Virus record (IMG/VR): IMGVR_UViG_3300032167_000022
Direction: 5' to 3' (one strand)
From: a virus
Length of the DNA: 32,771 nt
This document shows positions 69 to 15,917 of this stretch, in pieces. Position numbers and translations under genes: made by a program. Position 1 is the first letter of the stretch. The number at the start of each line of letters is the position of its first letter. Under the pieces are notes generated by a model that saw only the letters and a list, made by a program, of their open reading frames with translations, was not told where the DNA came from and made no database searches.

Positions 69-74
69 CTCTCT

Positions 75-281: not shown

Positions 282-339
282 TTTTTATCTCTCTTTCTAC
301 GGTTTTTATTGAGGTTGTCCGTTCCTCTGTTCTGTATAT

Positions 340-368: not shown

Positions 369-400
369 TACCTTTTTGAAAATTTATTTATGAATTTTTT

Positions 401-434
401 GTTAAGAAAAAAAGCTGTTTATAAAACAGCTTTT
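401..434 (-). terminator. rho-independent terminator (possibly bidirectional) for gene 631..419
   Basis: Stem aagctgtt/aacagctt with a 5-nt loop, followed by TTTTTTTCTT on the minus strand. The stop codon of the gene lies inside the hairpin. Confidence 0.55.
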
Positions 435-631: not shown

Positions 632-689
632 TTTGTTTACCTCTTTCTACCGTTCTTTTGGGCTTCCGGTTTTCCTCTTGTCTATATAT

Positions 690-718
690 ATTATACCATA
701 CTTTTACGCATTTGTCAA
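690..718 (-). promoter_or_regulatory. early promoter P2 (TTGACA-17-TGgTATAAT)
   Basis: tgtcaa at 713-718, attata at 690-695, spacer 17 nt. It is near-identical to P1. Confidence 0.7.
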
Positions 719-735
719 TAGGTTTTTGAAAATTT

Positions 736-775
736 CTTAAAAAAATTTTGAGAGGGTTTTCGGGAACCCTCTCGC
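736..775 (-). terminator. hairpin gagagggtt-ttcggg-aaccctctc downstream of gene 1102..785
   Basis: 9-bp stem with a 6-nt loop. The minus-strand tail is AAAATTTTTTT. The stem is related to the hairpin at 47-68. Confidence 0.4.
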
Positions 776-784
776 TTTAATTAA

Positions 785-1102
785 CTAAAATGTTGCTTCG
801 TTCTGTAAAATGTGCCTGCGCTTTTGTATATTCTTTTTGATTACGTTTGATAACCATTGCGGCGTATTGTTGTAAGTCACATAATTAGCCTGCTTATATT
901 CTGCTATGTACATTGTGATTATCATGCCTTCTTCGTCCTTGACTATCAGAACGCCTGTGTCTGTCAAGCAAGATACTGTCGGTGTGGTGGATGAATGGCG
1001 TTTAAATACGATGTTGCCATATCCAATAGTAGTGGCGATGTAAGCCACGCGGTCAAGGCGGTCTGCGCGCAGATGGTGGGAGATGTTTACTCTTTCAGTC
1101 AT
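785..1102 (-). CDS. early hypothetical protein (105 aa); the stop codon is TAG
   Basis: The ORF track extends to 1180, but its first 26 residues are translated promoter/UTR (CGIIYTE is tgtggtataatatatacag). The real start is the ATG at 1102, preceded by aaagaggtaaataaaATG. The stop at 785-787 is TAG, followed by ttaattaa. Confidence 0.55.
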   Translation of the reverse strand: MTERVNISHHLRADRLDRVAYIATTIGYGNIVFKRHSSTTPTVSCLTDTGVLIVKDEEGMIITMYIAEYKQANYVTYNNTPQWLSNVIKKNIQKRRHILQNEATF

Positions 1103-1151
1103 TTTATTTACCTCTTTCTTTTGGAAGGTGTGTTGTTTTCTTTCTGTATAT

Positions 1152-1180
1152 ATTATACCACATTTTTGTGTATTTGTCAA
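1152..1180 (-). promoter_or_regulatory. early promoter P3 (TTGACA-17-TGgTATAAT)
   Basis: tgtcaa at 1175-1180, attata at 1152-1157, spacer 17 nt. Confidence 0.7.
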
Positions 1181-1204
1181 TAGTTTTTTGAAAATTTATT
1201 TATG

Positions 1205-1244
1205 AACTTTTTGTAAACAAAAGGTACTGCTTTTCAGCAGTACC
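1205..1244 (-). terminator. rho-independent terminator for gene 1491..1234
   Basis: Stem ggtactgc/gcagtacc, then TTTTGTTTAC on the minus strand. The TGA stop of the gene sits in the loop. Confidence 0.6.
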
Positions 1245-1491
1245 CGCGTCTCATGATTTTCCTTTTTTCTGTTCCGATTATGCGGCAAGCTAACCGCACT
1301 GCGTGCCTGCGCTGGATTCTGATGCTTGCGCTTACCTCTTTGTCGTGCATCCAGTTGTCAAGGGCATCGCGCAATTCCATACGCTTATCTACCAATCTTC
1401 CCCAAATTTCATCATATCTTTCGTCGTAGGGGATGCGGTCAAGCGCATTGTTAATAAGGGTGATTCGGGTGATAGTGTTGATGATTTTCAT
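1234..1491 (-). CDS. early hypothetical protein (85 aa), stop TGA
   Basis: The real start is the ATG at 1491 (cat at 1489-1491 on the plus strand) after the conserved UTR with GAGG RBS. The upstream part of the track ORF is translated promoter. Confidence 0.55.
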   Translation of the reverse strand: MKIINTITRITLINNALDRIPYDERYDEIWGRLVDKRMELRDALDNWMHDKEVSASIRIQRRHAVRLACRIIGTEKRKIMRRGYC

Positions 1492-1551
1492 TGTTTTATC
1501 TCTCTTTCTTTTGGAGGGTGGCTCATTGACTCTCTCCCTCTCTCTGTATAT

Positions 1552-1580
1552 ATTATACCACATTTTAATAGATTTGTCAA
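1552..1580 (-). promoter_or_regulatory. early promoter P4 (TTGACA-17-TGgTATAAT)
   Basis: tgtcaa at 1575-1580, attata at 1552-1557, spacer 17 nt. Confidence 0.7.
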
Positions 1581-1671
1581 GGGGTTTTTTAAACTTTTTT
1601 CAAGAAATTTTCTTGGGGAAAAGCACCTGCGCATTTGGGAGTTTACTAACCCTTTCCCCCTTGACATATAT

Positions 1672-1700
1672 ATTATACCATACTTTGATTGAAAAGTCAA
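1672..1700 (-). promoter_or_regulatory. early promoter P5 (TTGACT-17-TGgTATAAT), in tandem about 120 bp upstream of P4 with no gene between
   Basis: agtcaa at 1695-1700, attata at 1672-1677, spacer 17 nt. Only about 80 nt of non-coding sequence separate it from P4. Confidence 0.6.
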
Positions 1701-1882
1701 TAGGTTTTTGAAAATTTATTTGTAAACAAAATATGAACTAATTTCGGGATACTGCTACCGAACAAATGTTTGTGCCTTACTTTAACAATTTATCACTTTA
1801 CCATACTAAAGCGCGAATTCGGGCCCCCACTACACCTGTCGTATGGAACGGATTGTTAAAACTTTAACAAGCGCATCCAGTA

Positions 1883-1913
1883 GACAAAAGAAAGATGGAG
1901 ATTACTCTCCATC
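1883..1913 (-). terminator. rho-independent terminator for gene 2060..1902
   Basis: Stem gatggaga/tctccatc with a 4-nt loop, followed by TTTCTTTTGTC on the minus strand. The TAA stop is in the loop. Confidence 0.6.
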
Positions 1914-2060
1914 TGTCAGATTCATTGCTATTACGAACATGTTCCAGTCTGCGTGCTGTGGTTCGCTCGTGTTGTTGTCTGCGATAATGTCAAGGTAGCT
2001 TACACCTGCCCAAATAGCAAGGGCGATTAAAATGGCGTTGATGGCTTTAAGAATTTTCAT
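1902..2060 (-). CDS. early small membrane/secreted peptide (52 aa: MKILKAINAILIALAIWAGVSYL...)
   Basis: ATG at 2060 after the conserved UTR. It has a hydrophobic N-terminal segment. The upstream part of the track ORF is translated promoter. Confidence 0.5.
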   Translation of the reverse strand: MKILKAINAILIALAIWAGVSYLDIIADNNTSEPQHADWNMFVIAMNLTDGE

Positions 2061-2118
2061 TGTCTTTGTATCCTTTCTTTGAGAGGGTTTGTTTTTTCTT
2101 TTCCCTTTCTCTATATAT

Positions 2119-2147
2119 ATTATATCATATTTTAATAGATTTGTCAA
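2119..2147 (-). promoter_or_regulatory. early promoter P6 (TTGACA-17-TGaTATAAT)
   Basis: tgtcaa at 2142-2147, attata at 2119-2124 with tca after it, spacer 17 nt. Confidence 0.7.
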
Positions 2148-2204
2148 TAGTTTTTCTTCAATTTAATTGTAAACGATTTATTAACATCGTTAAAACTTTA
2201 ACAA

Positions 2205-2245
2205 GCGCAGGCATTAGATAAGCAAGCATTTGTGATGCTTGCTTA
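2205..2245 (-). terminator. long imperfect hairpin (about 14 bp) downstream of gene 2473..2252
   Basis: tagataagcaagcat-ttgtg-atgcttgcttaatcta. There is no clear T tract on the minus strand. Confidence 0.35.
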
Positions 2246-2251
2246 ATCTAT

Positions 2252-2473
2252 TCACGCGAGACAAGCGTACAGAGTGAACTTCCTTTCTTCTACTTTGATG
2301 ATGCCTTCATCAGCCATCTCGCGCAGTACGTCAATCACGCGCAGACCATCGCCATTATAGCCCTTGATACCTGCTCTTGCCATAATGGTGTAGTAGGGAA
2401 GCCATTCAGCCATTACCGCATTTCTATTCTGAATCTTGTTTCTAATGTTCATCTTGCTTACGTTGATACCCAT
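2252..2473 (-). CDS. early hypothetical protein (73 aa), stop TGA
   Basis: ATG at 2473 (cat at 2471-2473) preceded by aagaaagaggtaacacaaATG. Confidence 0.55.
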   Translation of the reverse strand: MGINVSKMNIRNKIQNRNAVMAEWLPYYTIMARAGIKGYNGDGLRVIDVLREMADEGIIKVEERKFTLYACLA

Positions 2474-2546
2474 TTGTGTTACCTCTTTCTTTTGGTTGTT
2501 TTTGTTTTGTGCGCTCTCTGTCGCGCTCTTGTTTCTTTCTGTATAT

Positions 2547-2575
2547 ATTATACCACATTTTTGTGCATTTGTCAA
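2547..2575 (-). promoter_or_regulatory. early promoter P7 (TTGACA-17-TGgTATAAT)
   Basis: tgtcaa at 2570-2575, attata at 2547-2552, spacer 17 nt. Confidence 0.7.
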
Positions 2576-2660
2576 TAGGTTTTCGCAATATTTTTTTATT
2601 AACTTTTTATGAACATCGTTAAAACTTTAACAAACTCATACCACTGGACTACCAACAGCA

Positions 2661-2695
2661 GACAAAGAAAAGATGTGAGGTTTTACCCTCACATC
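2661..2695 (-). terminator. rho-independent terminator for gene 2859..2689
   Basis: Stem gatgtgagg/cctcacatc with a 6-nt loop, followed by TTTTCTTTGTC on the minus strand. The TGA stop is inside the hairpin. Confidence 0.6.
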
Positions 2696-2859
2696 CATCC
2701 AAGCTCTGCGCTTACTTCATTGAACTGCTCTTCATTGACATCGTACTCTACGTACTTTCTGCCATTCTCTTCGTAGAAGAAGAAGTTGCGCATCTCTACT
2801 CTGCCGCTTTCATAAATTTCATTAAACCACGCTTCACTCGTTGCTACTGTAATCATCAT
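2689..2859 (-). CDS. early hypothetical protein (56 aa, MMITVATSEAWFNEIYESGRVEMRNFFFYEENGRKYVEYDVNEEQFNEVSAELGWM)
   Basis: ATG ATG at 2859-2854 after the conserved UTR. The track ORF start at 2937 is translated promoter. Confidence 0.5.
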   Translation of the reverse strand: MMITVATSEAWFNEIYESGRVEMRNFFFYEENGRKYVEYDVNEEQFNEVSAELGWM

Positions 2860-2919
2860 TTTTTTAATCTCTCTTTCTGCCTTTCTTTTGGGCTTCAGGC
2901 TTTCCTCTGTTCTGTATAT

Positions 2920-2948
2920 ATTATACCACACTTTCATGGATTTGTCAA
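2920..2948 (-). promoter_or_regulatory. early promoter P8 (TTGACA-17-TGgTATAAT)
   Basis: tgtcaa at 2943-2948, attata at 2920-2925, spacer 17 nt. Confidence 0.7.
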
Positions 2949-3038
2949 GGGGTTTCGCAAAATTTTTTTATATTTTTTTTGTAAACAGATTATGAACATT
3001 GTTAAAAACTTAACTTACAAAGTTGGGAGAACTTTGCA

Positions 3039-3227
3039 CTTTAGTATGGTAAAGCGTTAATACATCGTTAAATCTTTAACAATCTCGCTGCCACCAAGCT
3101 CTACAAATGTATGTTAATTTTTTAACAATCTCGCTGCCGCAGCTCTACAAATGTATGTCAATCCAATTGCAGAGATTCGCTGAACTATGCAAATACTTTA
3201 ACGCTTTAGCACTTTACCATACTAAAG
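3039..3227. repeat. structured non-coding element: an inverted repeat (cactttagtatggtaaagcg at 3039-3058 and ctttaccatactaaagt at 3211-3227) flanking two tandem copies of about 40 bp (3076-3115 and 3121-3158)
   Basis: Direct reading shows an IR arm of 17-20 nt and near-identical direct repeats tttaacaatctcgctgcc..gctctacaaatgtatgt. A third copy of the arm (ctttaccatactaaag) sits at 1796-1811. Confidence 0.6.
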
Positions 3228-3269
3228 TATTCGCTACATTAGAGCGAGAGGGTTTGTACATAGTTTGTT

Positions 3270-3405
3270 AATAGTTTATTCACAATTAAATGTTAACAAA
3301 TTATTTACAATTTGTTCATAATTTGTTCACAATTATAGGAAATAAATTGTTAACAGTTTGTTCACAATTTGTTCATAAAAAATTTACAAATTGTTTACAA
3401 TTGCG
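3270..3405. repeat. iteron cluster: TTCACAATT three times, TGTTCATAA twice, TTTACAA(A)TT three times and TTGTTAACA twice; candidate replication origin or multi-site operator
   Basis: Short AT-rich direct repeats counted in a 135-bp non-coding stretch with no ORF. Confidence 0.5.
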
Positions 3406-3437
3406 AAAAACGGCTCGCTTCAGCCGCCAGCGAGCCG
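3401..3437 (-). terminator. rho-independent terminator ending the 4860-to-3648 minus-strand operon
   Basis: GC-rich 9-bp stem cggctcgct/agcgagccg with a 9-nt loop, followed by TTTTTCGCAA on the minus strand. Confidence 0.65.
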
Positions 3438-3576
3438 AGGAATGACAGGGTGCGATTATAGGGTTGCGCGTAGTCCTGGAAAAATCCGACAATAGGTTTT
3501 GTATAGTAGAGGGGGGTGGTTTTCGTGAAAAATTTTTTTTGAATTTGATAAAATGATTTGGTCTGGACAAAAATCC

Positions 3577-3650
3577 CCTAAAGTCATTTTTTAATTTCAA
3601 ATTACGAGAAACCCTAAAGTCATTTTGTAATTTCAAATCACGAAAAATCA
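3577..3650. repeat. two tandem 36-bp direct repeats (ccctaaagtcatttt.taatttcaaat.acga.aaa)
   Basis: Direct reading. These repeats are what generate the spurious 92-aa ORF 3373..3651 (LKLQNDFRVSRNLKLKNDFRGF). Confidence 0.6.
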
Positions 3651-3782
3651 ATCCTTCTTCTTCCTATTACGTTTAGGTTTTTCTCCCCAAATAGCCTCAT
3701 AAATTAAACTTGTACCTTTATTAGTAGCTTTCTGTCTTCTACTTTTTGCCATACTTCCCAAAATTCCACTCGGTTTTTTCAT
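3648..3782 (-). CDS. small, very basic protein (44 aa: MKKPSGILGSMAKSRRQKATNKGTSLIYEAIWGEKPKRNRKKKD), translationally coupled
   Basis: Its ATG overlaps the TAA of the upstream gene (TAAAATG), and GGAGG lies 8 nt upstream. The ORF track does not list it because it is under 60 aa. Confidence 0.35.
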   Translation of the reverse strand: MKKPSGILGSMAKSRRQKATNKGTSLIYEAIWGEKPKRNRKKKD

Positions 3783-3783
3783 T

Positions 3784-4218
3784 TTAATTCCTCCATCCAC
3801 AACATCCTTCCGTACCGCAAGCGTCGCATTGCGCTTCTACTTCACTTTTACAAGGTCTCCAATCTTCCACAGATTTCTTTGCGCTTTCTTCTTTCATATA
3901 TTTATCCCTATACTCAACAAATTCATCCCAGCCGCATTCATTAAAAATTTTAGTTGCTATAAATAATTCCCGCATACTATTATAAAAATGATATTCCTCC
4001 GGAGGAGGTTTAATTTCATTAGTCCTTACAAGTTTCCATCCTTTTACTTTCTTTCCAAATAATTCAGTTTCTGTTTCAACACCTTTAAACTCTTTATAAC
4101 TATAAGGATTTTTAATTCCATTAGCTTGCGCGTACTCATTAAATTCCATTTCATAAATAAGTATTGCCGCACTCACACCACTTATAACAATAGGTTCGTT
4201 AAAATCTGTCATCATCAT
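3784..4218 (-). CDS. early hypothetical protein (144 aa) with a C-terminal Cys cluster (CKSEVEAQCDACGTEGCCGW)
   Basis: Complete ORF with a TAA stop, in an operon behind P9. Confidence 0.55.
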   Translation of the reverse strand: MMMTDFNEPIVISGVSAAILIYEMEFNEYAQANGIKNPYSYKEFKGVETETELFGKKVKGWKLVRTNEIKPPPEEYHFYNSMRELFIATKIFNECGWDEFVEYRDKYMKEESAKKSVEDWRPCKSEVEAQCDACGTEGCCGWRN

Positions 4219-4249
4219 CCCATCCTTCCGGCATAAAAATATCTAAAAT

Positions 4250-4342
4250 CTATACTAACAAATTATTAAAAACTAAAATGGGGCCGCCCAGTATAAAGAC
4301 CGCATAAATAGCCCATTTAGCTCCTTCATTTTCAATCTTCAT
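4250..4342 (-). CDS. possible small hydrophobic peptide (30 aa, MKIENEGAKWAIYAVFILGGPILVFNNLLV) in a 187-nt intergenic gap; stop is TAG
   Basis: ATG at 4342 with a weak RBS. Support is only the ORF and the unusually long gap. Confidence 0.2.
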   Translation of the reverse strand: MKIENEGAKWAIYAVFILGGPILVFNNLLV

Positions 4343-4404
4343 AATTTCATCTAAATAATTACTAAACATTAAAAATGAGCAAATCATCCATCCAATAATA
4401 ATAA

Positions 4405-4797
4405 TTAAAGCTCCCACACGAATGTACCATCCTTTAATTTATAAACATTAGCATGTAAGTTAATAGCTTCTCCACCTTCAAAATCATATTCTTTTAAATT
4501 CTTTTCTTCCAAAACTTCTTTTAATACTAAACTATCTTTTGGTAAACATAATGTAACTCCAATAACATTATGGTCATCATACATAGAAGTATCAACTATA
4601 TTATATTGCGCTTTTTCATTAATAACATTTACTGAAGTTACTAAAGTAACATCATTATATTCTTCAACAATTAATTTTTTCATTCTATCTCTTAATGAGC
4701 GTGAGCTATCTTTTCTTTCAATAACAGCAATAATAATTGTTACAATTATCATACCCGCAGTTACAATTCCCAATAATAATAAAGCATCTAAAAACAT
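4405..4797 (-). CDS. early membrane-anchored protein (130 aa; N-terminal TM helix LLLLGIVTAGMIIVTIIIAVI)
   Basis: ORF with RBS ttgaggtgcgcaaATG behind P9. Stop is TAA. Confidence 0.55.
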   Translation of the reverse strand: MFLDALLLLGIVTAGMIIVTIIIAVIERKDSSRSLRDRMKKLIVEEYNDVTLVTSVNVINEKAQYNIVDTSMYDDHNVIGVTLCLPKDSLVLKEVLEEKNLKEYDFEGGEAINLHANVYKLKDGTFVWEL

Positions 4798-4831
4798 TTG
4801 CGCACCTCAATTTTTTTTATTTTCTATATAT

Positions 4832-4860
4832 ATTATATAAAAAATTTTTAAAAAAGTCAA
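4832..4860 (-). promoter_or_regulatory. early promoter P9 (TTGACT-17-TATAAT) for the 4797-to-3648 operon
   Basis: agtcaa at 4855-4860, attata at 4832-4837, spacer 17 nt. Confidence 0.6.
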
Positions 4861-4935: not shown

Positions 4936-5994
4936 ATGGTTAAATTAGATTATTCTTTACAAACTCCAGAAGAAAGAGTTAAATTAGTAGAATAGATTTT
5001 AGCCGAGGACCCAAACCCCAGTGAAAAATATTCAGAAGTATTGGCTGACTATTTAATTCTTTGTATGGAGAAACAAGAAAGAAAAGAAAAGAAAATTCTT
5101 ACTGAAAACCGAATGGCGACAGTAAATAAAAGAGAAACTTCTTATGAAGGTCTTGTTTCCCAATTAGAAAATGGCGAAGATGGTATATATAATTTAATGT
5201 CAGATAATAAATAGTAGATTTTTCAACCAAAAGTAACAATAACAAAAAAAGATTTAGAAGAGATTCCTGATTTGCGCCAATTGCGCGACGCCATAGAAAT
5301 CTGGGAGGCAAAACTAAAAACCGCCGAAGGAAAAGATGCTTTTACTATTAAAAAAGCTTTAATTGAATTGCGGAAAGACCAATATATTATTAAAAATGCG
5401 TTCAGATGCCCTGTTGAATTAAATAAGATTACTCGCTCAAAATCTTATATTAAATTAGATGATACAACTTGCGAATTTGATGATGATGGATATCCTATTC
5501 CTTCTGGAATTTCATTAATGAATCCTGAAGTTGTTTCAGCAATTTTATGTAATTATTCAAAATTAAAGCAAGATAGTTGGGATTATTTTGAAGGAGATAC
5601 TTGGTATCTTATGAATGATTTTGACCATTTGAGTAATGTGGCTTTAAAAGAATATCCATTATATGAACGATTAGTTGATTTAAAAATTGATGGACTTTAG
5701 AATGCGGATATCCAAATAAAATTAGAAGAAGAATTTGGAATTAAACATAGTCTAGAATATATATCTAGTTTATGGCGTAATAAAATTCCTAAATTAATTG
5801 CGTCAACTGCGGAAGATGAATTTTTAGATTGGTATTATTTAGAAGTTGAAAAAGGAAAATATAAAAAATGTAGTAGATGCGGACAGATTAAATTAGCTCA
5901 TAATAAATATTTTAGCAAGAATAAAACAAGCCGAGATGGCTTTTACAGTATTTGTAAATGCTGCCGGAATGCTAAAACAAAGAAAGGAGAATAA
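4936..5994 (+). CDS. first gene of the plus-strand module, about 352 aa, 4 in-frame TAG; C-terminal zinc-binding motif CSRCGQIKLAHNKYFSKNKTSRDGFYSICKCC (zinc ribbon or HNH-like?)
   Basis: RBS GGAGG, ATG at 4936. Frame 1 is continuous to the TAA at 5992-5994 if TAG is read as sense; it includes a TAG TAG doublet. The ORF track fragment 5272..5700 is in the same frame. Confidence 0.5.
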
Positions 5995-5997
5995 TTT

Positions 5998-7191
5998 ATG
6001 CCTGACCATTATTATTGTGAAAAATGTAATAGAACATTAGCAGCTGAAGAATTTTATACTTCAAATAATTTAGAAAAATATCCTAATGATGGTAAGTTAA
6101 ATCAATGTAAAAAATGTATTACAATGCATGTAGATAATTGGAATCCAGACACTTATCTATGGATTTTACAAGAAGTTGATGTCCCATATGTTCCAGAAGA
6201 ATGGGATAAACTTATGACATCATATATTAAAGACAATAAAAAAATTACAGGTATGACTATTTTAGGTAGATATCTATCTAAAATGAAATTAAAACAATTT
6301 AGAGAATATCGTTGGAAAGACAACGAATTTATACAAAATTTAAAAAATAAAAAAATTGAAGAAACAATGAAACGTTAGGGATATAGTGCGGTTGAAATAG
6401 CAGAAGCTATTAATAAATCAACCTTTACTATGCCTGTGGAAGAATTGCGCGAACCAGAACCTAAAGCAATTGGCTCTCAAGTGGAAGAAGAACCTGAAGA
6501 TTATTTTGCTAAATAGTCTGGTGCTGATGACTCTTTCTTTGATGATGATTTAACAGAAGAAGATAGAACATATTTAAGATTAAAATGGGGAAAAGCATAT
6601 AAACCAGAAGAATGGATTAAACTAGAACAACTTTATAATGAAATGATGGAATCTTATGATATCCAAACCGCAGGTCATATTGATACTTTAAAATTAATTT
6701 GTAAAACCTCATTAAAAGCAAATCAATTAATTGATATTGGTGATGTAGAAGGATTCCAAAAAATGAGTAAAGTTTATGATAACTTAATGAAGAGTGGTAG
6801 ATTTACTGCGGCCTAGAATAAAGCAGAATCTGGTGAGTTTGTTGACTCTATTGCTGAACTAGTTGAAATATGTGAAAAAGAAGGTTTTATTCCTAGATTT
6901 TATACAGATACACCAATGGATAAAGTTGATGAAACTTTAGCTGATTTAAAAGGATATACACGCACATTAGTCACTGAAGAAATGAATTTAGGTAATTTAA
7001 TTGAAAGTGCTGTTAAAGAAATGGCTAAGCAAGAAGCAAAAGAAGAAGATGAAGATGTTGAAGATGAACTTGATTTAGATGAAATTGAATAGTTAAAAGA
7101 TGAAGATTTTGAAGATTATAATCAATTTTTAGATGAAGATATAGAAGCTGACGCGGATTTCTTAAAGCAATTAACTAATGAGGGTAATTAA
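5998..7191 (+). CDS. about 397-aa protein with an N-terminal Cys4 zinc ribbon (CEKC...CKKC) and an acidic C-terminus, immediately upstream of terminase; candidate small terminase subunit or DNA-binding protein
   Basis: RBS aaaggagaataatttATG. Frame 1 is continuous through 4 TAG to the TAA at 7189-7191. The assignment rests on position and the zinc ribbon only. Confidence 0.45.
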
Positions 7192-7193
7192 TT

Positions 7194-8936
7194 ATGGCTT
7201 TATAGGATTTATTAAATTTATCTGAACAAAGAAAAAAAATTGGTTTATCTGAAGAAAGAGTAAATGCTATTATTCCAATAGTGCGTCAATACATTGCCTT
7301 TTGGAGAGAATATCCTGATATGTTTGTGGATTTTCTAGTTAGAGGTAATAGAACTGAAATAAAAGATGGCGAATTTAAATTTTATTTTTATTAGCGAGTA
7401 TTTTTGCGTGCGGCAATGCGACATCAGTATCTGTACGCAGTATTTCCTCGCGCCTATTCAAAATCATTCTTATCAGTAATGGTGTTAATGTGTAAATGTA
7501 TTTTGTATCCTCGTTGCAAATTGTTTGTTACTTCTGGAGGTAAGGAACAAGCTGCTGGTATCATTAAAGAAAAAGTTCAAGAAATTTGTACTCTTATTCC
7601 TGCGTTTAAAAATGAAATAGACTGGACAAGAGGTAAAACTCTTGAAGGAAAAGATTATTGTAAATATGTTTTTACAAATGGTTCATATTTTGATAATATC
7701 GCAGCGAGAGAAAGCTCTCGTGGTAAACGTCGTCATGGTGGTTTAATTGAGGAATGTGTTGGTGTTGATGGTACTATTCTTTCTGAAGTAATTATTCCTA
7801 CAATGAACGTTTCTCGTATGTGTATGGATGGTTCAACGCATCCAGAAGAATAGTTAAATAAGTCATAGATTTATGTAACTACAGCTGGATGGAAAAATAC
7901 ATTCCCTTATGATAAGCTCATTCAATTACTAGTATGGCAAATTGTTAAACCAGAAAAATCTATGATACTTGGTGGTACATATCGTATTCCAGTATTAGTT
8001 AAATTACTTGATAAAAACTTTATCCGTGATTTAAAAATGGATGGTACATTTAATGAGATGTCTTTTGACCGTGAATATGAAAGTAAATGGTCTGGTTCGG
8101 TTGAAGATGCTTTCTTTAATTCAGAAGTTTTTGATAGAAATAGAATTTTAAAATAGCCTGAATATGAAGCATCAGGGCGCTCAAGCAAATCTAGTTTTTA
8201 TATATTATCTGCGGATGTTGGTCGTAAAGGTTGTGATACTGTAGTATGCGTATTTAAGGTAACACCATAGCCGCAAGGCTCTTCCATAAAAACTTTAGTA
8301 AATTTATTTACTTTATCAGATGCGCATTTTGAAGATTAGGCTATTAAATTAAAAAGATTATTTTATAAATTTAATGCTCGTAGATTAATAATTGATGCTA
8401 ATGGTATGGGTATTGGTTTATTAGATTATTTAGTAAAGCCTCAAATTGACCCAGATACTGGCGATACTTTCCCTGATTTTGGTGTTTATAATGATGAAGA
8501 AGGATATTATAAAAAATATAGAACAGTAAATTGCGAACAAGATGCTGTTTATCAAATAAAAGCAAATGCTCCTATAAATACTGAAGCTCATGCTAATGCG
8601 CGTTCTCAATTATCTTCTGGAAAAGTTAAAATGCTTATAGATGAACGTGTGGCAAAAGTTAAATTAATGGGAACAAAATTAGGTTAGAATATGAAGCCTG
8701 AAGAAAGGGCAGAATATTTAAAACCATTTACTTTAACTTCCATATTAAGAGAGGAATTAATGAACCTTCGTGAAGAAAATGAAGGTGTTAATATTATACT
8801 TAAATAGGTAAACCGAGGGGTTAGAAAAGATAAATTTTCTGCCTTTGAATATGGTCTATATTATATTAAACAAGAAGAAGATAATAAAAAGAAGAAAAAG
8901 AAATTTAATGCTAAAGAGTGGATGTTTTTAAGTTAA
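7194..8936 (+). CDS. terL: terminase large subunit (about 580 aa, 9 in-frame TAG)
   Basis: RBS gagggt. The translation gives FYFY*RVF aligned with the T4 gp17 Y-Q-R adenine-binding motif, a deviant Walker A (PRAYSKS), YVTTAGW (motif III), and nuclease-domain aspartates (ILSADVGRKG, LIIDANGMGIGL). It ends at a TAA. Confidence 0.8.
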
Positions 8937-8948
8937 GGGGGGAGATAA

Positions 8949-9305
8949 TTGCGGGCATCTCGTGGTGAAATCAAAATAGAAGAAATTTTGACAGAAGCAG
9001 AATTACATTTTAAAATGGAATATATTTTTCCAGATTTAAAAAGTCCAAATGGTCGTCCTTTGAGATTTGATTTTGTTGTTTTTGATGATGATGGAAATAT
9101 TGATTTTATTATTGAATATTAGGGAAAATAGCATTATGAAGCTAGTCAAAAATTTGGTGGTAAAAAAGGTCTTTATCAACAACAATATAATGATAATCAA
9201 AAAAGAAGATTTTGTGCTTTACATGATTTTAAATTAATTGAAATCCCTTATACAGATGAACATCTTATTACTTATGATTATTTAATGCATTTAGCAGGAT
9301 ATTAA
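8949..9305 (+). CDS. DUF559/Vsr-like small endonuclease-fold protein (about 118 aa; RFDFVVFDDDGNIDFIIEY*GK*HY)
   Basis: Frame 0 ORF after RBS aagggggga. I propose a TTG start at 8949; the alternative is the in-frame ATG at about 9012. The motif resembles the DUF559 consensus (lvIEvDG.qH). Confidence 0.45.
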
Positions 9306-9322
9306 GTAAAGGAGGTGGAATT

Positions 9323-10936
9323 TTGGATAATAAAGAATTAACGCGAAATGAACAAATTCATGCTAAAGGTTTTAACATTGATGGCGGATATAGAGATTAT
9401 GCTTGTATAGATAGTGAGACTGACTTTAAACGTATAAAAGTTGGAGTTAAGCAATTAGATGACGCAGTTTTAAATTTAGGTTCATTAAAATCTTGTTTGC
9501 CACCAAACCATAAATTCGCAGATAAAAAATATATCTTTAAAATGATTATGGATAGAAATATAGAAGAATTGAGAAATATATCTAATTTCTATTATAATAT
9601 GAATGGTATATATGAAAGAGTTTGTAATTATTTCGCTTAGTTATATAGATATGACTGGTATGTTGTTCCAGAAGTAATTGATGATAGTATTAAAGAAGAT
9701 AAAATATTGAAAGATTTTTCTAAAGTGCTGAATTATTTAGATAATTCATATGTTAGAAAAATTTGTCAAGATATTGCTTTAGAGATTATGAAAAATGGAT
9801 GTTATTATGGATATCTTGTTCCAAGTTCAGATAGCATTATTCTACAACAATTGCCGATTGAATATTGCCGCTCTCGCTATAGCGTCGCAGGAATGCCAGC
9901 CATTGAATTTAATATGAAATTTTTTGATACGTTTAGAGATATGAATTATCGTTTAAAAGTATTAAATTTATTTCCCGATGAATTCAAAAAAGGTTATTTA
10001 CTTTATAAGCAAGGAAAATTACCCGCTGAAGTGTAGGGAGATAGTAGTGGTGGATGGTATTTATTAGATACAGATAGTGCTGTTAAATTTAATTTTAATG
10101 GTAGTGATATTCCTCCATTTGTAAATGCTATTGGGGCTTTATTGGATTTAGATGCTGCTTAGGATTTAGACCGTCGTAAGTAGATGTAGAAATTGTTAAA
10201 AATTATTGTTCAAAAACTTCCATTAGATAAAAATGGTGATTTAATTTTTGATGTAGATGAAGCAAGAGATATTCACAATAATGGTGTATAGATGTTAAGA
10301 CGTGCTGTTGGTGTTGATGTTTTAACAACTTTTACTGATGTTGATTCAATTGATTTATCTGATAAAAATACATCTACAACAACCGATGATTTGGAAAAAG
10401 TAGAAAGAGCATTATTTAATGCTTTAGGTATTTCTTAGAATTTATTTAATACTGATGGAAATTTATCATTGGAAAAATCTATTTTAAATGATGAATCAGT
10501 AGTGAGAAATCTATTATGTTAGTTTAGTATTTTCTTTGACAAAGTTATTGATAAAAAATATTCAAATGGAAAAAAATATAAATTTAAATTTTATATGTTA
10601 GAAACCACTCAATATAATTATAAAGATTTAGCTAAATTATACAAAGAATAGACGCAAATTGGATATTCAAAAATGTTACCGCAAATAGCTTTAGGTCATT
10701 CTCAAAGCTTTATTTTAAATTCAGTACATTTTGAAAATGAAGTATTACATTTAAGTGAAATTATGATTCCTCCTCTAATGAGTTCAACTATGAGTAGTGA
10801 AGATGTTTTAGGTAATAAAAAATCTACAACTAGTTCCAATTCTAATTCTACTTCTGGAAATGCGGTTGGCCGACCGGAGAAAGCAGATTCAGAAAAAAGT
10901 GAAAAGACAATTCAAAATAAAGAGTCAATGAATTAA
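9323..10936 (+). CDS. portal protein (about 537 aa, about 12 in-frame TAG)
   Basis: TTG start after AAAGGAGGTGG. One frame is continuous, joining track ORFs 9323, 9707 and 10673. It lies downstream of terL and has a Ser/Thr-rich acidic C-terminus. I did not verify family membership. Confidence 0.5.
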
Positions 10937-10947
10937 GGAGGATAATA

Positions 10948-12579
10948 ATGAAACATAAAAGTATTAAATTAGATACAGGAGTTGAATTAATTAATATCAC
11001 TCCTTTTAATCCATTAATTTCTAAATGTTAGATTAAGGTTTGTTATGTAAGTGATGAACCTAACAGAAATAAAAGTATAATTACTAAAGAAGTTGCTAAA
11101 TAGATTGCTAATAGTCTTCCAGGCAGTCCTATTGTTGGTTATTATAACGAACACAAAGAAGACTTTGAAGAACATAATAGAATTATTGAAATTTCAAATG
11201 GATAGTTTAAAATTAAAGATACAACTAGACCATATGGATTTGTTGATTTAGGAGCAAAAGTATGGTTTCAGAAATTTTTAGATGATGATACCACTGAAAG
11301 AGAATATTTAGTAACTGAAGGATGGCTGTGGACTGGTCAATATCCTGAATGCCAACGAGCAATTGATGAAGGAAATAATCATTCTATGGAATTAGATGAA
11401 GATTATTTAAATGCTTTTTGGACGAAAGATAGTAATGGAAAACCTTAGTTTTTTATTATAAATGAAGCAATTATTTCAAAACTTTGTATGTTAGGCGAGG
11501 ATAATGAACCTTGTTTTGAAGGTTCAAATATTACCGCGCCAGATTTAACATTCTCATATGGAGATAATTTTAAAGAACAACTTTTCTCTATGATGAATGA
11601 AATAAAAGAATTATTAAATGAAGGAGGAAAAGAAGTGTTTACTAGATACGCTGTAGAAATCGGTGACGCTTTATGGAGCAGTCTTTATAGCTACCTTGAA
11701 AAAACATATCCAGATGGACAGTATTGTTCTGTATATCGTATTGAAGGTATTTATGAAGAGAATGGTCAAAAGTTTACTATTCTTCAACATCGTGCTGATT
11801 TAAAATATTTCCGTTTAAATTTCTCTTTGGATGAAAGTAATGGATTTGTTCCATCAGACACTTTTGTTGAGGTAACAAAGACTTATACTCCATCTGAACA
11901 GCCTCAGTTCGCTTTGGCTGATATTGAAGCTTATGAAGCTGAATATGCCTCAAATCAGAAAAATTCTTCTGAAGAAGAGGACAAAAATGATAAAGATGAA
12001 ACAAACAATTCTGATAATAATTCAGAAGGTGAAAAAGCACCTGAAGATAATGAAACTTTCGCAAAGAAAGATGATGAAGAGGAAGAAAAATGTCCTAAAT
12101 GCGGCAAACCTGTAAAGGAATGCGAGTGCGAGGATGAAGAAGAAGAGGATAAGAAAAAGAAATATTCTCTTGAAGAAATTCCTGAATATGTAGAACTTCA
12201 AAATACTTATGCTCAATTAAAGAGTGATTATGATGCTCTTGTACTTGAAAAAGAAAATCTTGAAGCGCAAATTAAACCATTATCTGAATTTAAAGCTAAT
12301 GCTGATAAAAAAGAAAAAGAAGCAATGATTGCTAGTTTCTATATGCTTTCTGATGAAGATAAAGCTGATGTTATTACCAATATTGATACTTATTCTTTGG
12401 ATGAAATTGAAGCAAAGCTTGCTATTATTTGTGTTCGTAACAAGGTTAGTTTTAATCTTGAAGATGATAAAGGTGTTGAAACACCACCTACAACTTATGA
12501 CCTAAACAGTGATGATAATAATGATAATGTTCCTGCTTGGGTTAAACGTGCAATGTCTGTTGCAGAAAATATGAAATAA
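10948..12579 (+). CDS. prohead protease and/or scaffolding protein (about 543 aa: N-terminal domain with 5 TAG, then an acidic coiled-coil C-terminal half with no TAG and a CPKCGKPVKECEC motif)
   Basis: RBS ggaggataataATG. The frame is continuous to track ORF 11488..12579. Its position between portal and capsid and its acidic coiled-coil composition support the call. Confidence 0.45.
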
Positions 12580-12608
12580 TAATAAAAATTTAAAGGAGGA
12601 CATATATA

Positions 12609-13427
12609 ATGTATTCACCTGGAATGGAAAAATGGTTCAAGAATAATTATGCTAGCCAGGCAAAATACGTTCAGTTTGGTTTTGGTCAGGTTGAACCTAA
12701 CCATCTTTCTGCTCAACGTACCGGCCAGATTTATGGCCAATTGCCTGCGGCTGCTGATATTGCTATTTTAGAGCAAGGCCAGTTTGTAAAGTATGACTAT
12801 GCGAAGGGTGTAGTTAATTTTGAGGGTGCTGGCGAATGGATGCTCGTTTATAATGAAATTAAGTTATATCGTGAAAATCAGGCAGATTGCGAATTCGCAA
12901 TGTTAAAAGATAATTATCAGGCTCGTGTTTATAGCCCATTTGGTTACGGTCTTGATAAGGACGGCAATCAGGCTCCTGATATTGTCTGGGACAAACAGTC
13001 TCGTTATTATAATGGTGTTGATGCTGAAGGTAATGACTCCATTACTCTTAATGATAAGACTTATAAGTTTGATGATGTAACTGCTGATGGTACCACTATT
13101 ACTGCTGCTGATGGTACTGAAAAGCATATTTCTGCTGACCCTTATGAGATGAATCTCACTAGTGACCCTTATCATATTGAAGGTCCTTATAAGGAAGCTA
13201 TGATGCCCGAAGGCACCACAATGGTTCCTCGCGTATTTAAGACTAATGTTGGTGATATTTTCACTACTAACACTGTAAATGCTGACACTCTTGCTGTTGG
13301 TGATATTCTTACTCCTGGTGCTAAGGGTATCCTTGAGGTTGGCGAAGGCGATATGAAGTGGCAGGTTGTTAAAGTTTATACAATGCCTGATAGACAGCAA
13401 GGCGTTAAGATTATGCGTATTGCGTAA
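12609..13427 (+). CDS. capsid-associated structural protein (272 aa; decoration or auxiliary capsid protein?), TAG-free, higher GC and different codon usage
   Basis: RBS aaaggaggacatatataATG. Complete ORF; Thr/Gly/Asp-rich. Confidence 0.5.
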   Translation: MYSPGMEKWFKNNYASQAKYVQFGFGQVEPNHLSAQRTGQIYGQLPAAADIAILEQGQFVKYDYAKGVVNFEGAGEWMLVYNEIKLYRENQADCEFAMLKDNYQARVYSPFGYGLDKDGNQAPDIVWDKQSRYYNGVDAEGNDSITLNDKTYKFDDVTADGTTITAADGTEKHISADPYEMNLTSDPYHIEGPYKEAMMPEGTTMVPRVFKTNVGDIFTTNTVNADTLAVGDILTPGAKGILEVGEGDMKWQVVKVYTMPDRQQGVKIMRIA

Positions 13428-13444
13428 GAAAGGAGTGAAGAATA

Positions 13445-14560
13445 ATGGCTTTAGATAGACAAAATTTAGTTGATTTGATGAAGCAGGTAGCAAAAGCTGA
13501 CCCTTCCGCTCCTACTGCTTATGCGTATGGTGATAAGACTCTTAGCTATGATGCTTTAAATGAAACTTTGCGTCAAGAATTAAATGAACTTGCTGGTTCA
13601 TATTCTGACTATCGTGAAAATAAAAATCTTATTTTCGCAGTAATTGAAGAAACTCTTGATGAAGTTCTTCCTAAGAAGGTTGAACAGAAATATGAGCAGT
13701 TTGCTGAAGTTAAGCAGTTTGCTCAAGGTGATAAGCCTGCGTTTCGCCGCAAGGTTGGTTCCAGCAAACGTGCTAAGCAGTTTATTACTCGTGTTGGTTT
13801 AAATGGTATTTATGAAGTATTTAAGCTTGCTCCTAATACCGATGAAGTAATTGAAGTTCGTACTTCTGCTGTCGGTGGAGCTGCTCAAATCGGATTTGAG
13901 GAGTTCCTTGATGGTCGTGTAGACTTCGCAGAAGTTACTCGCATCGTTATGGAGGGTATTGATGAACTTATTTATAAGGAAATCGCGCATGCTCTTAAAG
14001 CTTCTGTAAATCAGTTACCACCAGCAAATAGAGTTGCTGCTCCTGGCTTTGATGAGGCTGCTTTTGACAAACTTCTTACTATTGCTAATGCTTATGGTAC
14101 ACCTACTATTTATTGTACTTATGAATTTGCTGTTCAGATGATTCCATAGGAAGCTTGGAGATATACTGAGGCAATGAAGACTGAGCTTTGGAATACTGGT
14201 CGTCTCGCTTCTTATAAGGGACATAAGGTAGTTATTCTTGAGCAAGGCTTTGAGGATGAAACTAATAGTCGCAAAGTTATTGACCCAGGTTATGTATGGA
14301 TTATTCCTGCTGGCGCTGATAGCAAGCCTGTAAAGGTTGCTTTTGAAGGTCAGACTCTTGTTGATGAATAGGTTAATAAGGACCGTTCTCGTGAAATTCA
14401 GGTTTATAAGAAGGTTGGCGTTGTTGCTATGTTGGCAAATAACATTTGCTGCTATGTTGATACTGCTCTTCTTGGTGACCTTGATACTTGGCATCTTGAT
14501 GGTGTAACCGGTAAGGTTGCTACTTATGATGGCCGTCTTGATGGTTCTTTAAAGGCGTAA
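13445..14560 (+). CDS. major capsid protein candidate (371 aa, only 2 TAG)
   Basis: RBS aaggagtgaagaataATG. It joins track ORFs 13445 and 14174 through TAG. A strong terminator follows it, as is typical for a major capsid gene. The residue pattern is reminiscent of HK97-fold capsid proteins, but this is not verified. Confidence 0.5.
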
Positions 14561-14596
14561 TTAATAATTTAAAATTAAATATATATAAATAAACAT

Positions 14597-14640
14597 GGGG
14601 GAGAATGGGGATGTTCCCCTTCTCCCTTATATTTATTAAT
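14597..14640 (+). terminator. rho-independent terminator after the capsid gene
   Basis: GC hairpin ggggagaatgggga-tgt-tccccttctccc followed by ttatatttatt. Confidence 0.6.
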
Positions 14641-14662
14641 GGAGATAAAGGAGATAAATAAA

Positions 14663-15226
14663 ATGGCAAATAATAAAATATGTTTAGTAAAGAATAGAAG
14701 TGCTGGAATGGTTGTTTATAAAATTCCAGAAGATGGAGTTAGACGTGAATTTCAGCCCGGTGAAACAAAAAAGATTGCGTTTACAGAGTTGGAGAAATTA
14801 ACTTATCAACCTGGTGGACGCACACTTATTGCGAATTTTCTTCAAATTACTGATGAAAAAGTAACTAGTGATTTAAATGTTCATACAGAAGCTGAGTACT
14901 ATATGTCTGAAGAACAAGTTGCTGAATTGATTTTAAATGGTGAACTTGACGCTTTCCTTGATGCTTTAGATTATGCCCCTATTGGCGTAATTGATTTAAT
15001 TAAGCAATATGCTATTTCTCTTCCAATGAATGACTTACAGAAGAGAGATGCTTTATTGAAAAAGACTGGTTTTGATGTGACCAGAGCTCTTGAAAATTTG
15101 CGCAATGAACAGCAAGTTGATAATGCTAATAAGGAAAATGATGCGGCTCCAGCTACTACTTCTAGACGTAGAACAACTACAAATTATAAAGTCGTTAATA
15201 AAACAGAAGAAAGTAAAAGTGAGTAA
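14663..15226 (+). CDS. hypothetical structural protein (187 aa), TAG-free
   Basis: RBS aaaggagataaataaaATG. The track ORF start at 14639 is probably too early. Confidence 0.5.
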   Translation: MANNKICLVKNRSAGMVVYKIPEDGVRREFQPGETKKIAFTELEKLTYQPGGRTLIANFLQITDEKVTSDLNVHTEAEYYMSEEQVAELILNGELDAFLDALDYAPIGVIDLIKQYAISLPMNDLQKRDALLKKTGFDVTRALENLRNEQQVDNANKENDAAPATTSRRRTTTNYKVVNKTEESKSE

Positions 15227-15248
15227 TTAATAGATAGGAGGCGAAGAG

Positions 15249-15917
15249 ATGGCAACACTTTTTGGAAGTGTTTATAATCGCTTTCTTGGAAAAATTACTG
15301 ATGATTTGTATATGGAATTAACCCCAGAAGATACAATTAAGGATTTGTAGAATTTCTTAATTGACGCAATTCCTGGTTTTGAATTTCCACGCATTAATTT
15401 ATTTGATTATAAAATTAATTTACAAATTGTTGATGCTGATTAGCTCGTAGATGATGATTTTATTTTAGGAGCTATTTGGGGAGATATTTCAAATACTGAT
15501 AAATCATAGATTCCTAGTTTTGATGAATTTGCTTCATTACCAGCTAATTTATAGTTTCATGTAACTTGGGGCGAAATACCAGATACATCAAAACCAGATG
15601 TTCCAAAAGTTCTTGTTGATAGGTCTTATTTTACAGCTGAATTAAGTTCTGAAGAAATCAATATTTTAGCAATATTGATGAAACAGGCTTGGGTTTAGCG
15701 TCAAGTTACTTCAATTGAGCATACTCGTATGAAATATAGTGGGTCAGATTTTAAAATGACTTCACAAGCAAACCATTTACAAAAATTATTAAATTTATTG
15801 GAAGAATCTCGTAGAGATTCTCTCCATATGTAGCGTTTATATAAACGAAGAAAAAATGTAAATGGAATTTATCAATCTAATTGGTCTATATTGAGGGATA
15901 CGAGTGCTATTAACTAA
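15249..15917 (+). CDS. head-tail joining region protein (222 aa, 6 TAG)
   Basis: RBS taggaggcgaagagATG. Frame 0 is continuous to a TAA. Confidence 0.45.

What the first reader, a model, noticed from the sequence alone, without database searches (positions are those of the whole stretch)
7194..9305. The amino acid encoded by TAG is probably glutamine
In the terminase, the segment FYFY-TAG-RVFL sits about 20 residues upstream of the deviant Walker A PRAYSKS. The adenine-binding motif of large terminases (T4 gp17 LRDYQRDML, Q143) occupies that position, so Tyr-TAG-Arg matches Tyr-Gln-Arg. In the DUF559-like gene, IEY-TAG-GK-TAG-HY places the second TAG on the conserved Q of the DG.QH motif. TAG is also one C-to-T transition away from CAG. 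All three observations point to code 15 (amber read as Gln), as in other recoded phages.
Basis: partly seen in the sequence, partly recalled or inferred. Interest (0 to 1): 0.65.

Follow-up and report, generated by a model that had tools for sequence, protein, structure and literature searches.

The report
Amber codon read as glutamine

Summary
From about 4939 to the window's end, + strand genes carry 154 in-frame TAG codons. Reading TAG as sense doubles + strand ORF coverage (14.4 to 31.4 kb). Of 18 complete late genes, 17 stop at TAA, one at TGA, none at TAG.

I aligned the window proteins (TAG as X) to the DNA of relatives with no in-frame stops. In the closest (L027, terminase about 83% identical), 41 of 63 aligned TAG positions are Gln (26 CAA, 15 CAG). 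That 65% matches conservation of ordinary Gln codons (62-67%). Gln beats the next residue by 118 log-likelihood units. A leave-one-codon-out control recovered 45 of 46 codons.

All nine terminase TAGs and both endonuclease TAGs fall on Gln. TAG-67 is Gln in every homologue examined and aligns with T4 gp17 Q143, spaced identically from Walker A.

Two sub-claims are weaker. The small gene does not match DUF559. Sites facing TAG in the non-recoded relative are not enriched for CAG.

No suppressor tRNA lies in the window or within about 10 kb on either side, so the decoding machinery is inferred. The phenomenon is known (Borges et al.; phAss-1, a 41%-identical relative filed under code 15).

The parts
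4939..32771 (+). Late (packaging, head, tail) module in which TAG is a sense codon. It holds 19 genes, the last running off the window, and 154 in-frame TAGs. Of the 18 complete genes, 17 end in TAA and one in TGA.
7194..8936 (+). Terminase large subunit of the SPbeta YonF type, 580 aa. It has nine in-frame TAGs, at 7203, 7392, 7851, 7866, 8154, 8268, 8337, 8685 and 8805.
   Evidence: tblastn to annotated terminases of Enterococcus, Geobacillus, Lactococcus and Bacillus phages. All nine TAGs face Gln in L027.
7392..7394 (+). TAG codon 67 of the terminase, in Y-X-R. The column is Gln in every homologue examined. It aligns with T4 gp17 Q143 (the adenine-binding Q motif) and lies 18 residues upstream of Walker A.
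7446..7466 (+). Deviant Walker A motif PRAYSKS (residues 85-91). It aligns with SRQLGKT of T4 gp17.
8949..9305 (+). Small endonuclease-like gene of 118 aa between terminase and portal. TAGs at 9120-9122 (residue 58) and 9129-9131 (residue 61). PHROGs calls it a homing endonuclease; it is not a Pfam DUF559 match.
   Evidence: Both TAGs face Gln in L027, L032, L033 and MT836163.
9323..10936 (+). Portal protein (phrog_2739) with nine in-frame TAGs. Six of them face Gln in all three close non-recoded relatives that cover the gene.
21744..31664 (+). Tape measure protein, 3306 aa, with 78 in-frame TAGs. Only distant non-recoded relatives (about 30% identity) were available. Gln is still the best fit, but weakly.
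12609..15226 (+). TAG-poor, CAG-rich, higher-GC late genes: g7 (12609-13427, no TAG), the YonB-family gene g8 (probable major capsid; 13445-14560, two TAGs) and g9 (14663-15226, no TAG).
18642..19676 (+). Tail tube gene (YomU_Tube). It has no TAG and uses more CAG than CAA.
1..4860 (-). Early-type region on the opposite strand: small ORFs behind consensus sigma-70 promoters. The ORFs are complete under the standard code.

Best explanation
The window is the late structural and packaging module of a roughly 135 kb SPbeta-like siphovirus from gut metagenomes. In that module the amber codon TAG is translated as glutamine (NCBI table 15), while TAA and, rarely, TGA terminate. That TAG is sense and corresponds to Gln is shown by comparison.

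The mechanism is inferred from published code-15 phages and from relatives. A tRNA with anticodon CUA, charged with Gln and expressed during infection, would suppress TAG. Late genes would then be translatable only once the suppressor is present. The oppositely oriented early genes behind consensus sigma-70 promoters would be read with the host's standard code.

Within the late module TAG has largely taken the place of CAG as the second Gln codon. The exceptions are the presumably most abundant virion proteins (the YonB-family capsid gene, the tube gene, g7 and g9), which avoid TAG and keep CAG. That would be expected if suppression is less efficient than ordinary decoding.
For: TAG is sense:
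- + strand ORF coverage rises from 14.4 to 31.4 kb with TAG as sense.
- Similarity to homologues runs across the TAGs.
- Of 18 complete late genes, 17 end in TAA and one in TGA; none ends in TAG.

TAG is Gln:
- L027 has no in-frame stops in 15 aligned genes. In it 41 of 63 aligned TAG sites are Gln (26 CAA, 15 CAG), or 0.65, against 0.62-0.67 for canonical Gln codons. The log-likelihood margin over the next residue is 118 nats.
- Across four non-recoded relatives the majority residue is Gln at 39 of 65 TAG sites (60%). The figure is 58% for canonical Gln sites and 0-2% for window K, E, T, N or S sites.
- MT836163 (59% identical, non-recoded) has Gln at 20 of 50 sites, a margin of 36 nats.
- Non-recoded relatives from a second collection (L066, L097, L104, L107, L115, L125) each give Gln as the best fit.
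- The method recovered 45 of 46 canonical codons when each was masked in turn.
- Terminase columns 67 and 382 are Gln in all nine more distant phages.

Context:
- phAss-1, with a 41%-identical terminase, is filed by NCBI under 'Caudoviricetes code 15 clade' and carries three tRNA(CUA) genes (PMC10607447).
- Two recoded relatives encode RF2 beside the same module.
- Borges et al. report late-gene TAG-to-Gln recoding in several gut phage clades (bioRxiv 10.1101/2021.08.26.457843).
Against: - No tRNA was found in the window, in the 10 kb to its left or in the 9.5 kb to its right. None was found in about 100 related loci centred on the same module. The decoder for this phage has therefore not been seen.
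- No release-factor gene lies in the window.
- For the tape measure gene, which holds half of all TAGs, only relatives of about 30% identity were available. There the margin for Gln over Lys is as small as 1.1 nats in one comparison.
- About a third of TAG sites face other residues (K, E, T, F/Y). That is the same turnover as ordinary Gln sites, but it cannot exclude a minor second reading.
- Alignments cannot tell Gln from a non-canonical residue placed at Gln positions.
Confidence: 0.93

Rival explanations
1. TAG encodes a different canonical amino acid, with Lys or Glu the most plausible; Trp, Tyr, Ser and Leu are the classic suppressor identities.
For: In distant relatives (VRE9_4, FADO, BcoS-136) Lys is the commonest residue opposite TAG, and it fits slightly better than Gln by 2-8 nats. 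In the tape measure gene Lys trails Gln by only 1.1 nats in one comparison.
Against: In every close non-recoded relative Gln wins by 36-118 nats. Window Lys and Glu sites have a Gln majority only 2% of the time, against 60% for TAG sites. Columns 67 and 382 of the terminase are Gln in all nine more distant phages and the four close relatives. The excess of Lys in distant comparisons is what variable surface Gln positions would give in AT-rich genomes.
Confidence: 0.02
2. TAG is decoded ambiguously: mostly as Gln, with a second amino acid or a non-canonical residue inserted by a further suppressor, or with substantial termination.
For: The relative phAss-1 carries three different tRNA(CUA) genes. 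One is 91 nt with a long extra arm. Another has an anticodon arm identical to the phage tRNA-Trp(CCA) except for the middle anticodon base. The presumably most abundant virion genes avoid TAG in 40-58 recoded relatives, which suggests decoding has a cost.
Against: TAG sites behave quantitatively like CAA sites in their match to Gln codons of the non-recoded relative (65% against 68%). That leaves little room for a second major identity. No such tRNA has been seen for this phage.
Confidence: 0.04
3. The TAGs are genuine stops, so the genes are fragmented pseudogenes or the sequence is an assembly artefact.
For: Standard-code gene callers do split these genes into many small ORFs (the JGI calls). 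Some PHROG families look like such fragments.
Against: There are 154 TAGs, all in the frame of the homologues, and no in-frame TAA or TGA. Similarity continues across them. The same structure recurs in at least 23 contigs from different samples. Most fetched relatives are recoded at partly different sites.
Confidence: 0.01

Closest known systems
Genetic code 15 (TAG to Gln) phages of animal and human guts: crAss-like, Lak and the Firmicutes-infecting clades of Borges et al. (bioRxiv 10.1101/2021.08.26.457843)
   Same: In-frame TAG is concentrated in late structural and packaging genes. TAG aligns with Gln in terminase alignments. TAA and TGA are kept as stops. Recoded and non-recoded members are interleaved within one clade. 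One pair of relatives encodes RF2.
   Different: This is a different lineage (SPbeta-like, about 30% GC, 3306-aa tape measure). No suppressor tRNA or release factor has been seen in the DNA reachable for this phage.
Phage phAss-1 and the proposed Phassvirus group (OQ749652; Babkin et al. 2023, PMC10607447)
   Same: It has the same module order (YonG-like gene, terminase, small endonuclease, portal and so on), a similar genome size (136 kb) and a human-gut source. TAG is reassigned to Gln. That paper places Enterococcus phage EF1 as a non-recoded relative, and EF1 is also a relative here.
   Different: The terminase is only about 41% identical, and only 3 of 89 aligned window TAG sites (the nine-relative comparison) are also TAG in phAss-1. 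GC content is 39% against 30%. This is a different genus-level lineage at least. phAss-1 has three tRNA(CUA) genes; none has been found here.
Non-recoded SPbeta-like phages (Bacillus SPbeta YonF/YonE module, Enterococcus VRE9_4/EF1/H1, Geobacillus E3, Lactococcus 949)
   Same: The late module is homologous and in the same gene order. Pfam YonG_N, YonD_N, YonB, YomW, YomV, YomU and YomO families hit the orthologues.
   Different: Those phages use the standard code throughout, with no in-frame stops in the aligned genes.
T4 gp17 large terminase ATPase centre
   Same: The order and spacing of the Q motif (Y-Q-R), Walker A, Walker B (h-h-D/E-E) and the TTT/TTA coupling motif are the same.
   Different: There is no detectable sequence homology by HMMER to any solved terminase and no Pfam terminase hit. 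The hhalign probability is 1.3%. The AlphaFold model was too poor (pLDDT 44) for a fold comparison.

Membership tests
Code 15 (amber to Gln) recoded phage | In-frame TAG in essential genes; reading TAG as sense restores full-length homologues | tested here: met
   154 in-frame TAGs. + strand ORF coverage rises from 14.4 to 31.4 kb. The terminase, portal and tape measure genes become full length.
Code 15 (amber to Gln) recoded phage | TAG positions correspond to Gln in homologues that use the standard code | tested here: met
   41 of 63 sites in L027; Gln is the majority at 39 of 65 sites in four relatives; margin 118 nats; control 45 of 46 codons.
Code 15 (amber to Gln) recoded phage | The other two stop codons keep their stop function | tested here: met
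   Of 18 complete late genes, 17 end in TAA and one in TGA. Reading TGA as sense does not restore genes.
Code 15 (amber to Gln) recoded phage | Phage-encoded suppressor tRNA(CUA) of Gln identity (common but not universal in the class) | tested here: inconclusive
   No tRNA in the window or in about 10 kb on either side. About 80 kb of the genome could not be reached. The relative phAss-1 has three.
Code 15 (amber to Gln) recoded phage | Gln found at TAG positions in the proteins themselves | not testable with these tools
   This needs proteomics.
SPbeta-type (YonF) terminase large subunit | Homology to YonF-type terminases, a position directly upstream of the portal, and ATPase motifs | tested here: met
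   31-59% identity over more than 90% of the length to annotated terminases or YonF proteins. Walker A R-A-x-S-K-S and Walker B LIEE are conserved. The portal follows.
Pfam terminase families / solved terminase structures | A significant profile or sequence match | tested here: not met
   No Pfam hit and no PDB hit. The only link is a weak, same-order hhalign alignment to T4 gp17.
DUF559 (PF04480) endonuclease | A match to the Pfam model | tested here: not met
   The only hits are DUF2726 at E = 0.002-0.004, below its cut-off, and RAP at 0.22. PHROGs gives phrog_9084, homing endonuclease, at 1.9e-24.
Phassvirus (phAss-1 genus) | High nucleotide identity and gene order shared with phAss-1 | tested here: not met
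   No megablast match to any phage record. The terminase is 41% identical at the protein level. Gene order is shared.

The most novel reading that the evidence does not exclude
The late genes fall into two translation classes, and the split is conserved across the clade. Four late genes (the YonB-family capsid gene g8, the tube gene g15, g7 and g9) almost never use TAG and prefer CAG; g8 and g15 are presumably among the most abundant virion proteins. All other late genes have almost eliminated CAG and use TAG in its place. If this reflects a phage tRNA-Gln whose anticodon changed from CUG to CUA, swapping CAG reading for TAG reading, it would be a case of codon capture with a built-in expression hierarchy rather than a simple late-gene lock.
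Probability: 0.15. Interest if true: 0.55.

Novelty: new member of a known kind. Interest (0 to 1): 0.25.

Why it matters
The practical value is in annotation. Under the standard code this phage's terminase, portal, tail genes and 3306-aa tape measure break into dozens of meaningless fragments, as the JGI gene calls and some PHROG families show. Table 15 restores them. The result also adds an abundant, low-GC, SPbeta-like gut lineage to the phages that reassign amber to Gln. This lineage has hundreds of related metagenome contigs, and most of those examined are recoded. Recoded and non-recoded members sit only about 17% apart in terminase sequence, which makes a good natural series for studying how recoding starts. 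It does not change what is known about the code itself.

Tried and rejected
1. Sequence searches of the terminase, alone or as a nine-sequence profile, found nothing useful in PDB, Pfam or NCBIfam.

2. An AlphaFold2 model was built on 27 close homologues, headed by the non-recoded P0078. It reached only pLDDT 44, so no fold search was run. The window protein with X could not be submitted.

3. The hunt for the suppressor tRNA failed.
- ARAGORN found none in the window, on either side (L017, L022) or in about 100 related loci.
- Walking further was blocked. The IMG/VR scans found no relative. The first metagenome scan, with a tape measure segment, found nothing.

4. The 120 database homologues of the terminase all show Gln at the nine sites. 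I did not count this as evidence. Many of them come from gene calls already made with code 15, as the 'translates_to_query: no' flag for P0117 shows. Only relatives checked on DNA were used.

5. Host inference from MAG bins was uninformative. The contigs are binned with Erysipelotrichaceae, Lachnospiraceae, Tenericutes, Bacteroidales, Treponema and others.

6. I tested whether TAG sites descend specifically from CAG. There is no enrichment at orthologous sites.

7. A megablast search of 25 kb of the window against GenBank phage records found no match.

Full report
**1. What is in the sequence**

The finding's interval covers two genes. The first runs from ATG 7194 to TAA 8936, encodes 580 aa and has nine in-frame TAGs. 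The second runs from 8949 to 9305, encodes 118 aa and has two in-frame TAGs. They are FYFY-TAG-RVFL, 18 residues before PRAYSKS, and IEY-TAG-GK-TAG-HY.

The phenomenon is not local. All + strand genes from about 4939 to the end of the window are interrupted by TAG.
- There are 154 in-frame TAGs, or 17 per 1000 codons, against 212 CAA and 57 CAG.
- With TAG as sense, + strand ORFs of at least 100 aa cover 31.4 kb instead of 14.4 kb. TGA as sense gives no comparable gain.
- Of the 18 complete genes, 17 end in TAA and one in TGA; none ends in TAG.
- ARAGORN finds no tRNA in the window.

**2. What the genes are**

tblastn of the joined 580-aa protein finds 134 phage records. The matches are annotated as terminase large subunit, terminase ATPase subunit or YonF. 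They include:
- Enterococcus phages VRE9_4, H1 and EF1 (48% identity);
- Geobacillus E3 (50%) and Alicyclobacillus KKP_3916 (48%);
- Brevibacillus Sundance, Lactococcus 949-like phages and large Bacillus phages (31-35%);
- an unannotated human faecal contig, MT836163 (59%);
- phage phAss-1 (41%).

VRE9_4 has the same gene order: terminase, homing endonuclease, portal, and so on to the tape measure. Pfam families named after SPbeta proteins (YonG_N, YonD_N, YonB, YomW, YomV, YomU tube, YomO) hit the orthologues on metagenome contigs carrying this phage. PHROGs gives portal for 9323-10936 and homing endonuclease for 8949-9305. The window is therefore the late module of an SPbeta-like siphovirus.

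The same phage occurs on at least 23 contigs, up to 99 kb long. A JGI contig and an ENA contig overlap at the window and together imply a genome of about 135 kb.

**3. Which amino acid**

I translated every late gene with TAG as X. I then aligned the proteins by tblastn to the DNA of relatives, so that no gene caller's choice of table could leak into the result.

First set, nine relatives from GenBank:
- MT836163 has no in-frame stop over about 12 kb. Gln (14 CAA, 6 CAG) sits opposite 20 of 50 aligned TAG sites.
- P(Gln | TAG) is 0.40 against P(Gln | canonical Gln) of 0.37. The figure is 0.01-0.05 for other window residues.
- The log-likelihood margin of Gln over the next residue is 36 nats.
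- Terminase columns 67 and 382 are Gln in all nine phages.
- In the most distant relatives Lys is as good as or slightly better than Gln. That is expected for variable surface positions in AT-rich genomes.

Second set, close relatives. A search of the protein collection returned 120 terminases of 81-92% identity, all with Gln at the nine sites. I did not use these directly, because many come from code-15 gene calls. P0117's gene does not translate to the recorded protein under table 11. P0078's gene does.

Its contig, L027, has no in-frame stop in any of the 15 aligned genes, so it is a non-recoded relative; the terminase is about 83% identical and all aligned positions together 71%.
- Opposite the window's TAGs it has Gln at 41 of 63 sites (26 CAA, 15 CAG).
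- That is 0.65, against 0.62-0.67 for canonical Gln codons.
- The margin over the next candidate (Thr) is 118 nats.

Three more non-recoded relatives came from MAG contigs (L032, L033, L037). With all four, Gln is the majority residue at 39 of 65 TAG sites (60%). The figure is 58% for canonical Gln sites and 0-2% for window Lys, Glu, Thr, Asn or Ser sites. All nine terminase TAGs and both endonuclease TAGs face Gln.

As a control I masked each canonical codon in turn. The method recovered 45 of 46 codons. The one failure was ATG, which has no synonymous codon to train on. The per-site margin for TAG (1.87 nats) is close to that for CAA (1.98).

Six further non-recoded relatives from a metagenome scan each give Gln as the best fit. 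For the tape measure gene only relatives of about 30% identity were available. There Gln still ranks first, but narrowly: 1.1 to 10.5 nats.

**4.

(a) The Q motif. Beyond the invariance of column 67, hhalign of the nine-sequence terminase alignment against T4 gp17 gives a same-order alignment of 312 columns.
- Y-X67-R falls on Y142-Q143-R144.
- PRAYSKS falls on SRQLGKT.
- GLIEEC falls on MIYIDEC.
- YVTTAG falls on IITTTP.
- The Q-to-Walker-A spacing is the same.

The probability is only 1.3%, so this is motif-level support, not statistical proof. No solved terminase or Pfam family matches by sequence. The AlphaFold model was unusable, with pLDDT 44.

(b) The DUF559 label is not borne out. Pfam gives only sub-threshold DUF2726 and RAP hits. 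The point that matters still holds: the second TAG faces Gln in all five non-recoded orthologues examined. The first does so in four of them and faces Asn in VRE9_4.

(c) CAG to TAG. Recoded genes contain almost no CAG, 0-1 per gene. TAG's share of Gln-type codons (about 0.3-0.5) resembles CAG's share in the non-recoded relative. However, the L027 codons facing window TAGs are no richer in CAG than those facing window CAAs (Fisher p = 0.84). So the history is plausible but not shown site by site.

**5. How it probably works**

It is shown that TAG is a sense codon equivalent to Gln in the late module, and that TAA and TGA terminate. The rest is inferred. A tRNA(CUA) charged with Gln would be supplied during infection, making late genes translatable only then.

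Support comes from relatives and the literature.
- phAss-1 has three tRNA(CUA) genes and is classified by NCBI in the 'Caudoviricetes code 15 clade'. Its authors reached TAG = Gln by the same terminase argument and by tRNAscan-SE (PMC10607447).
- Two recoded relatives of this window (L029, L030) encode a release factor 2 directly beside the late module. It scores 381.9 bits against TIGR00020, whose cut-off is 370, and has the SPF motif. RF2 does not recognise UAG.
- Borges et al. describe late-gene TAG-to-Gln recoding with suppressor tRNAs in several gut phage clades that infect standard-code hosts.

For this phage itself I could not reach the tRNA. None lies in the window, in the 10 kb to its left or in the 9.5 kb to its right.

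The left 4.8 kb of the window is an oppositely oriented early-type region. It has small ORFs behind seven perfect consensus sigma-70 promoters. This fits a switch from a standard-code early phase to a code-15 late phase.

**6. Extent of recoding in the clade**

Of 20 relatives' loci built around the terminase, 16 are TAG-recoded and four are not. Of the metagenome loci around the tube gene with enough aligned sequence, most are recoded and about seven are not. TAG positions are only partly shared: 19 of 63 with L029.

Four late genes almost never carry TAG, across 40-58 recoded relatives. They are g7, the YonB-family gene g8, g9 and the tube gene g15.
- They have 0.4-0.7 TAG per 1000 codons, against 12-30 per 1000 in most other late genes.
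- They use CAG at 15-34 per 1000 codons, against 2-6 per 1000.
- In the window they are also the GC-richer genes, 0.34-0.40 against about 0.29.

**7. Verdict**

The phenomenon and the way of inferring it are already published, including for a relative with the same module layout. What is added is a new, abundant, low-GC lineage and a clean comparison between recoded and non-recoded members. Interest is low to moderate.

Noticed in passing
window 340-2948 (- strand), plus 1672-1700 and 4832-4860: Seven perfect 12/12 sigma-70 promoters (TTGACA, 17 nt, TG-n-TATAAT) lie at 350-460 bp spacing. Each is embedded in a repeat of about 92 nt and precedes a small - strand ORF. Two more copies score 11/12. 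This looks like an early promoter array facing away from the recoded late module.
   Followed up: partly
window 12609-15226 and 18642-19676; relatives L029-L127: g7, the YonB-family capsid gene g8, g9 and the tube gene g15 avoid TAG (0, 2, 0 and 0 codons) and are GC-richer (0.34-0.40 against about 0.29); g7, g8 and g15 also prefer CAG to CAA. The same four genes have 0.4-0.7 TAG per 1000 codons in 40-58 recoded relatives, against 12-30 per 1000 for most other late genes.
   Followed up: partly
L029 6633-7676 and L030 6630-7673 (- strand): Two TAG-recoded relatives encode a release factor 2 just upstream of the late module (TIGR00020, 381.9 bits against a cut-off of 370; SPF and GGQ motifs). 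It is absent from the window and from every other fetched locus.
   Followed up: yes
L021 17577-17745 and L026 10879-10955 (phage phAss-1): phAss-1's three tRNA(CUA) genes differ from one another. One is 91 nt with a long extra arm. One has an anticodon arm identical to the phage's tRNA-Trp(CCA) except for the middle anticodon base. All three have G73. None is simply a copy of the phage's tRNA-Gln genes.
   Followed up: partly
window 3273-3400: A cluster of short direct repeats at 11-bp spacing (TTGTTCAC/TAA-like units) lies in the intergenic stretch of the early region. Its function is unknown; it could be an operator or iteron array (family D4).
   Followed up: no
window 21744-31664: The tape measure gene encodes 3306 aa, longer than the annotated tape measure genes of the relatives whose full gene was seen (about 2,500-2,800 aa in VRE9_4, Sundance, BcoS-136). 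It holds 78 of the 154 TAGs.
   Followed up: no
window 8949-9305: The small endonuclease gene between terminase and portal is present in this phage, L027, MT836163, VRE9_4 and phAss-1. It is absent at that position in Geobacillus E3, KKP_3916, Sundance, Lactococcus 949 and the Bacillus phages. That distribution fits a mobile homing-endonuclease insertion.
   Followed up: partly
window 785-1180 and 4250-4417 (- strand): Two of the eleven early-region ORFs end in TAG. Once TAG is suppressed they would be extended by 15-16 codons.
   Followed up: no
window 1-43: A run of about 30 T lies at the very start of the window. The window start coincides to within about 50 bp with the end of a 99-kb JGI contig, so this may mark an assembly break or a genome end.
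   Followed up: no
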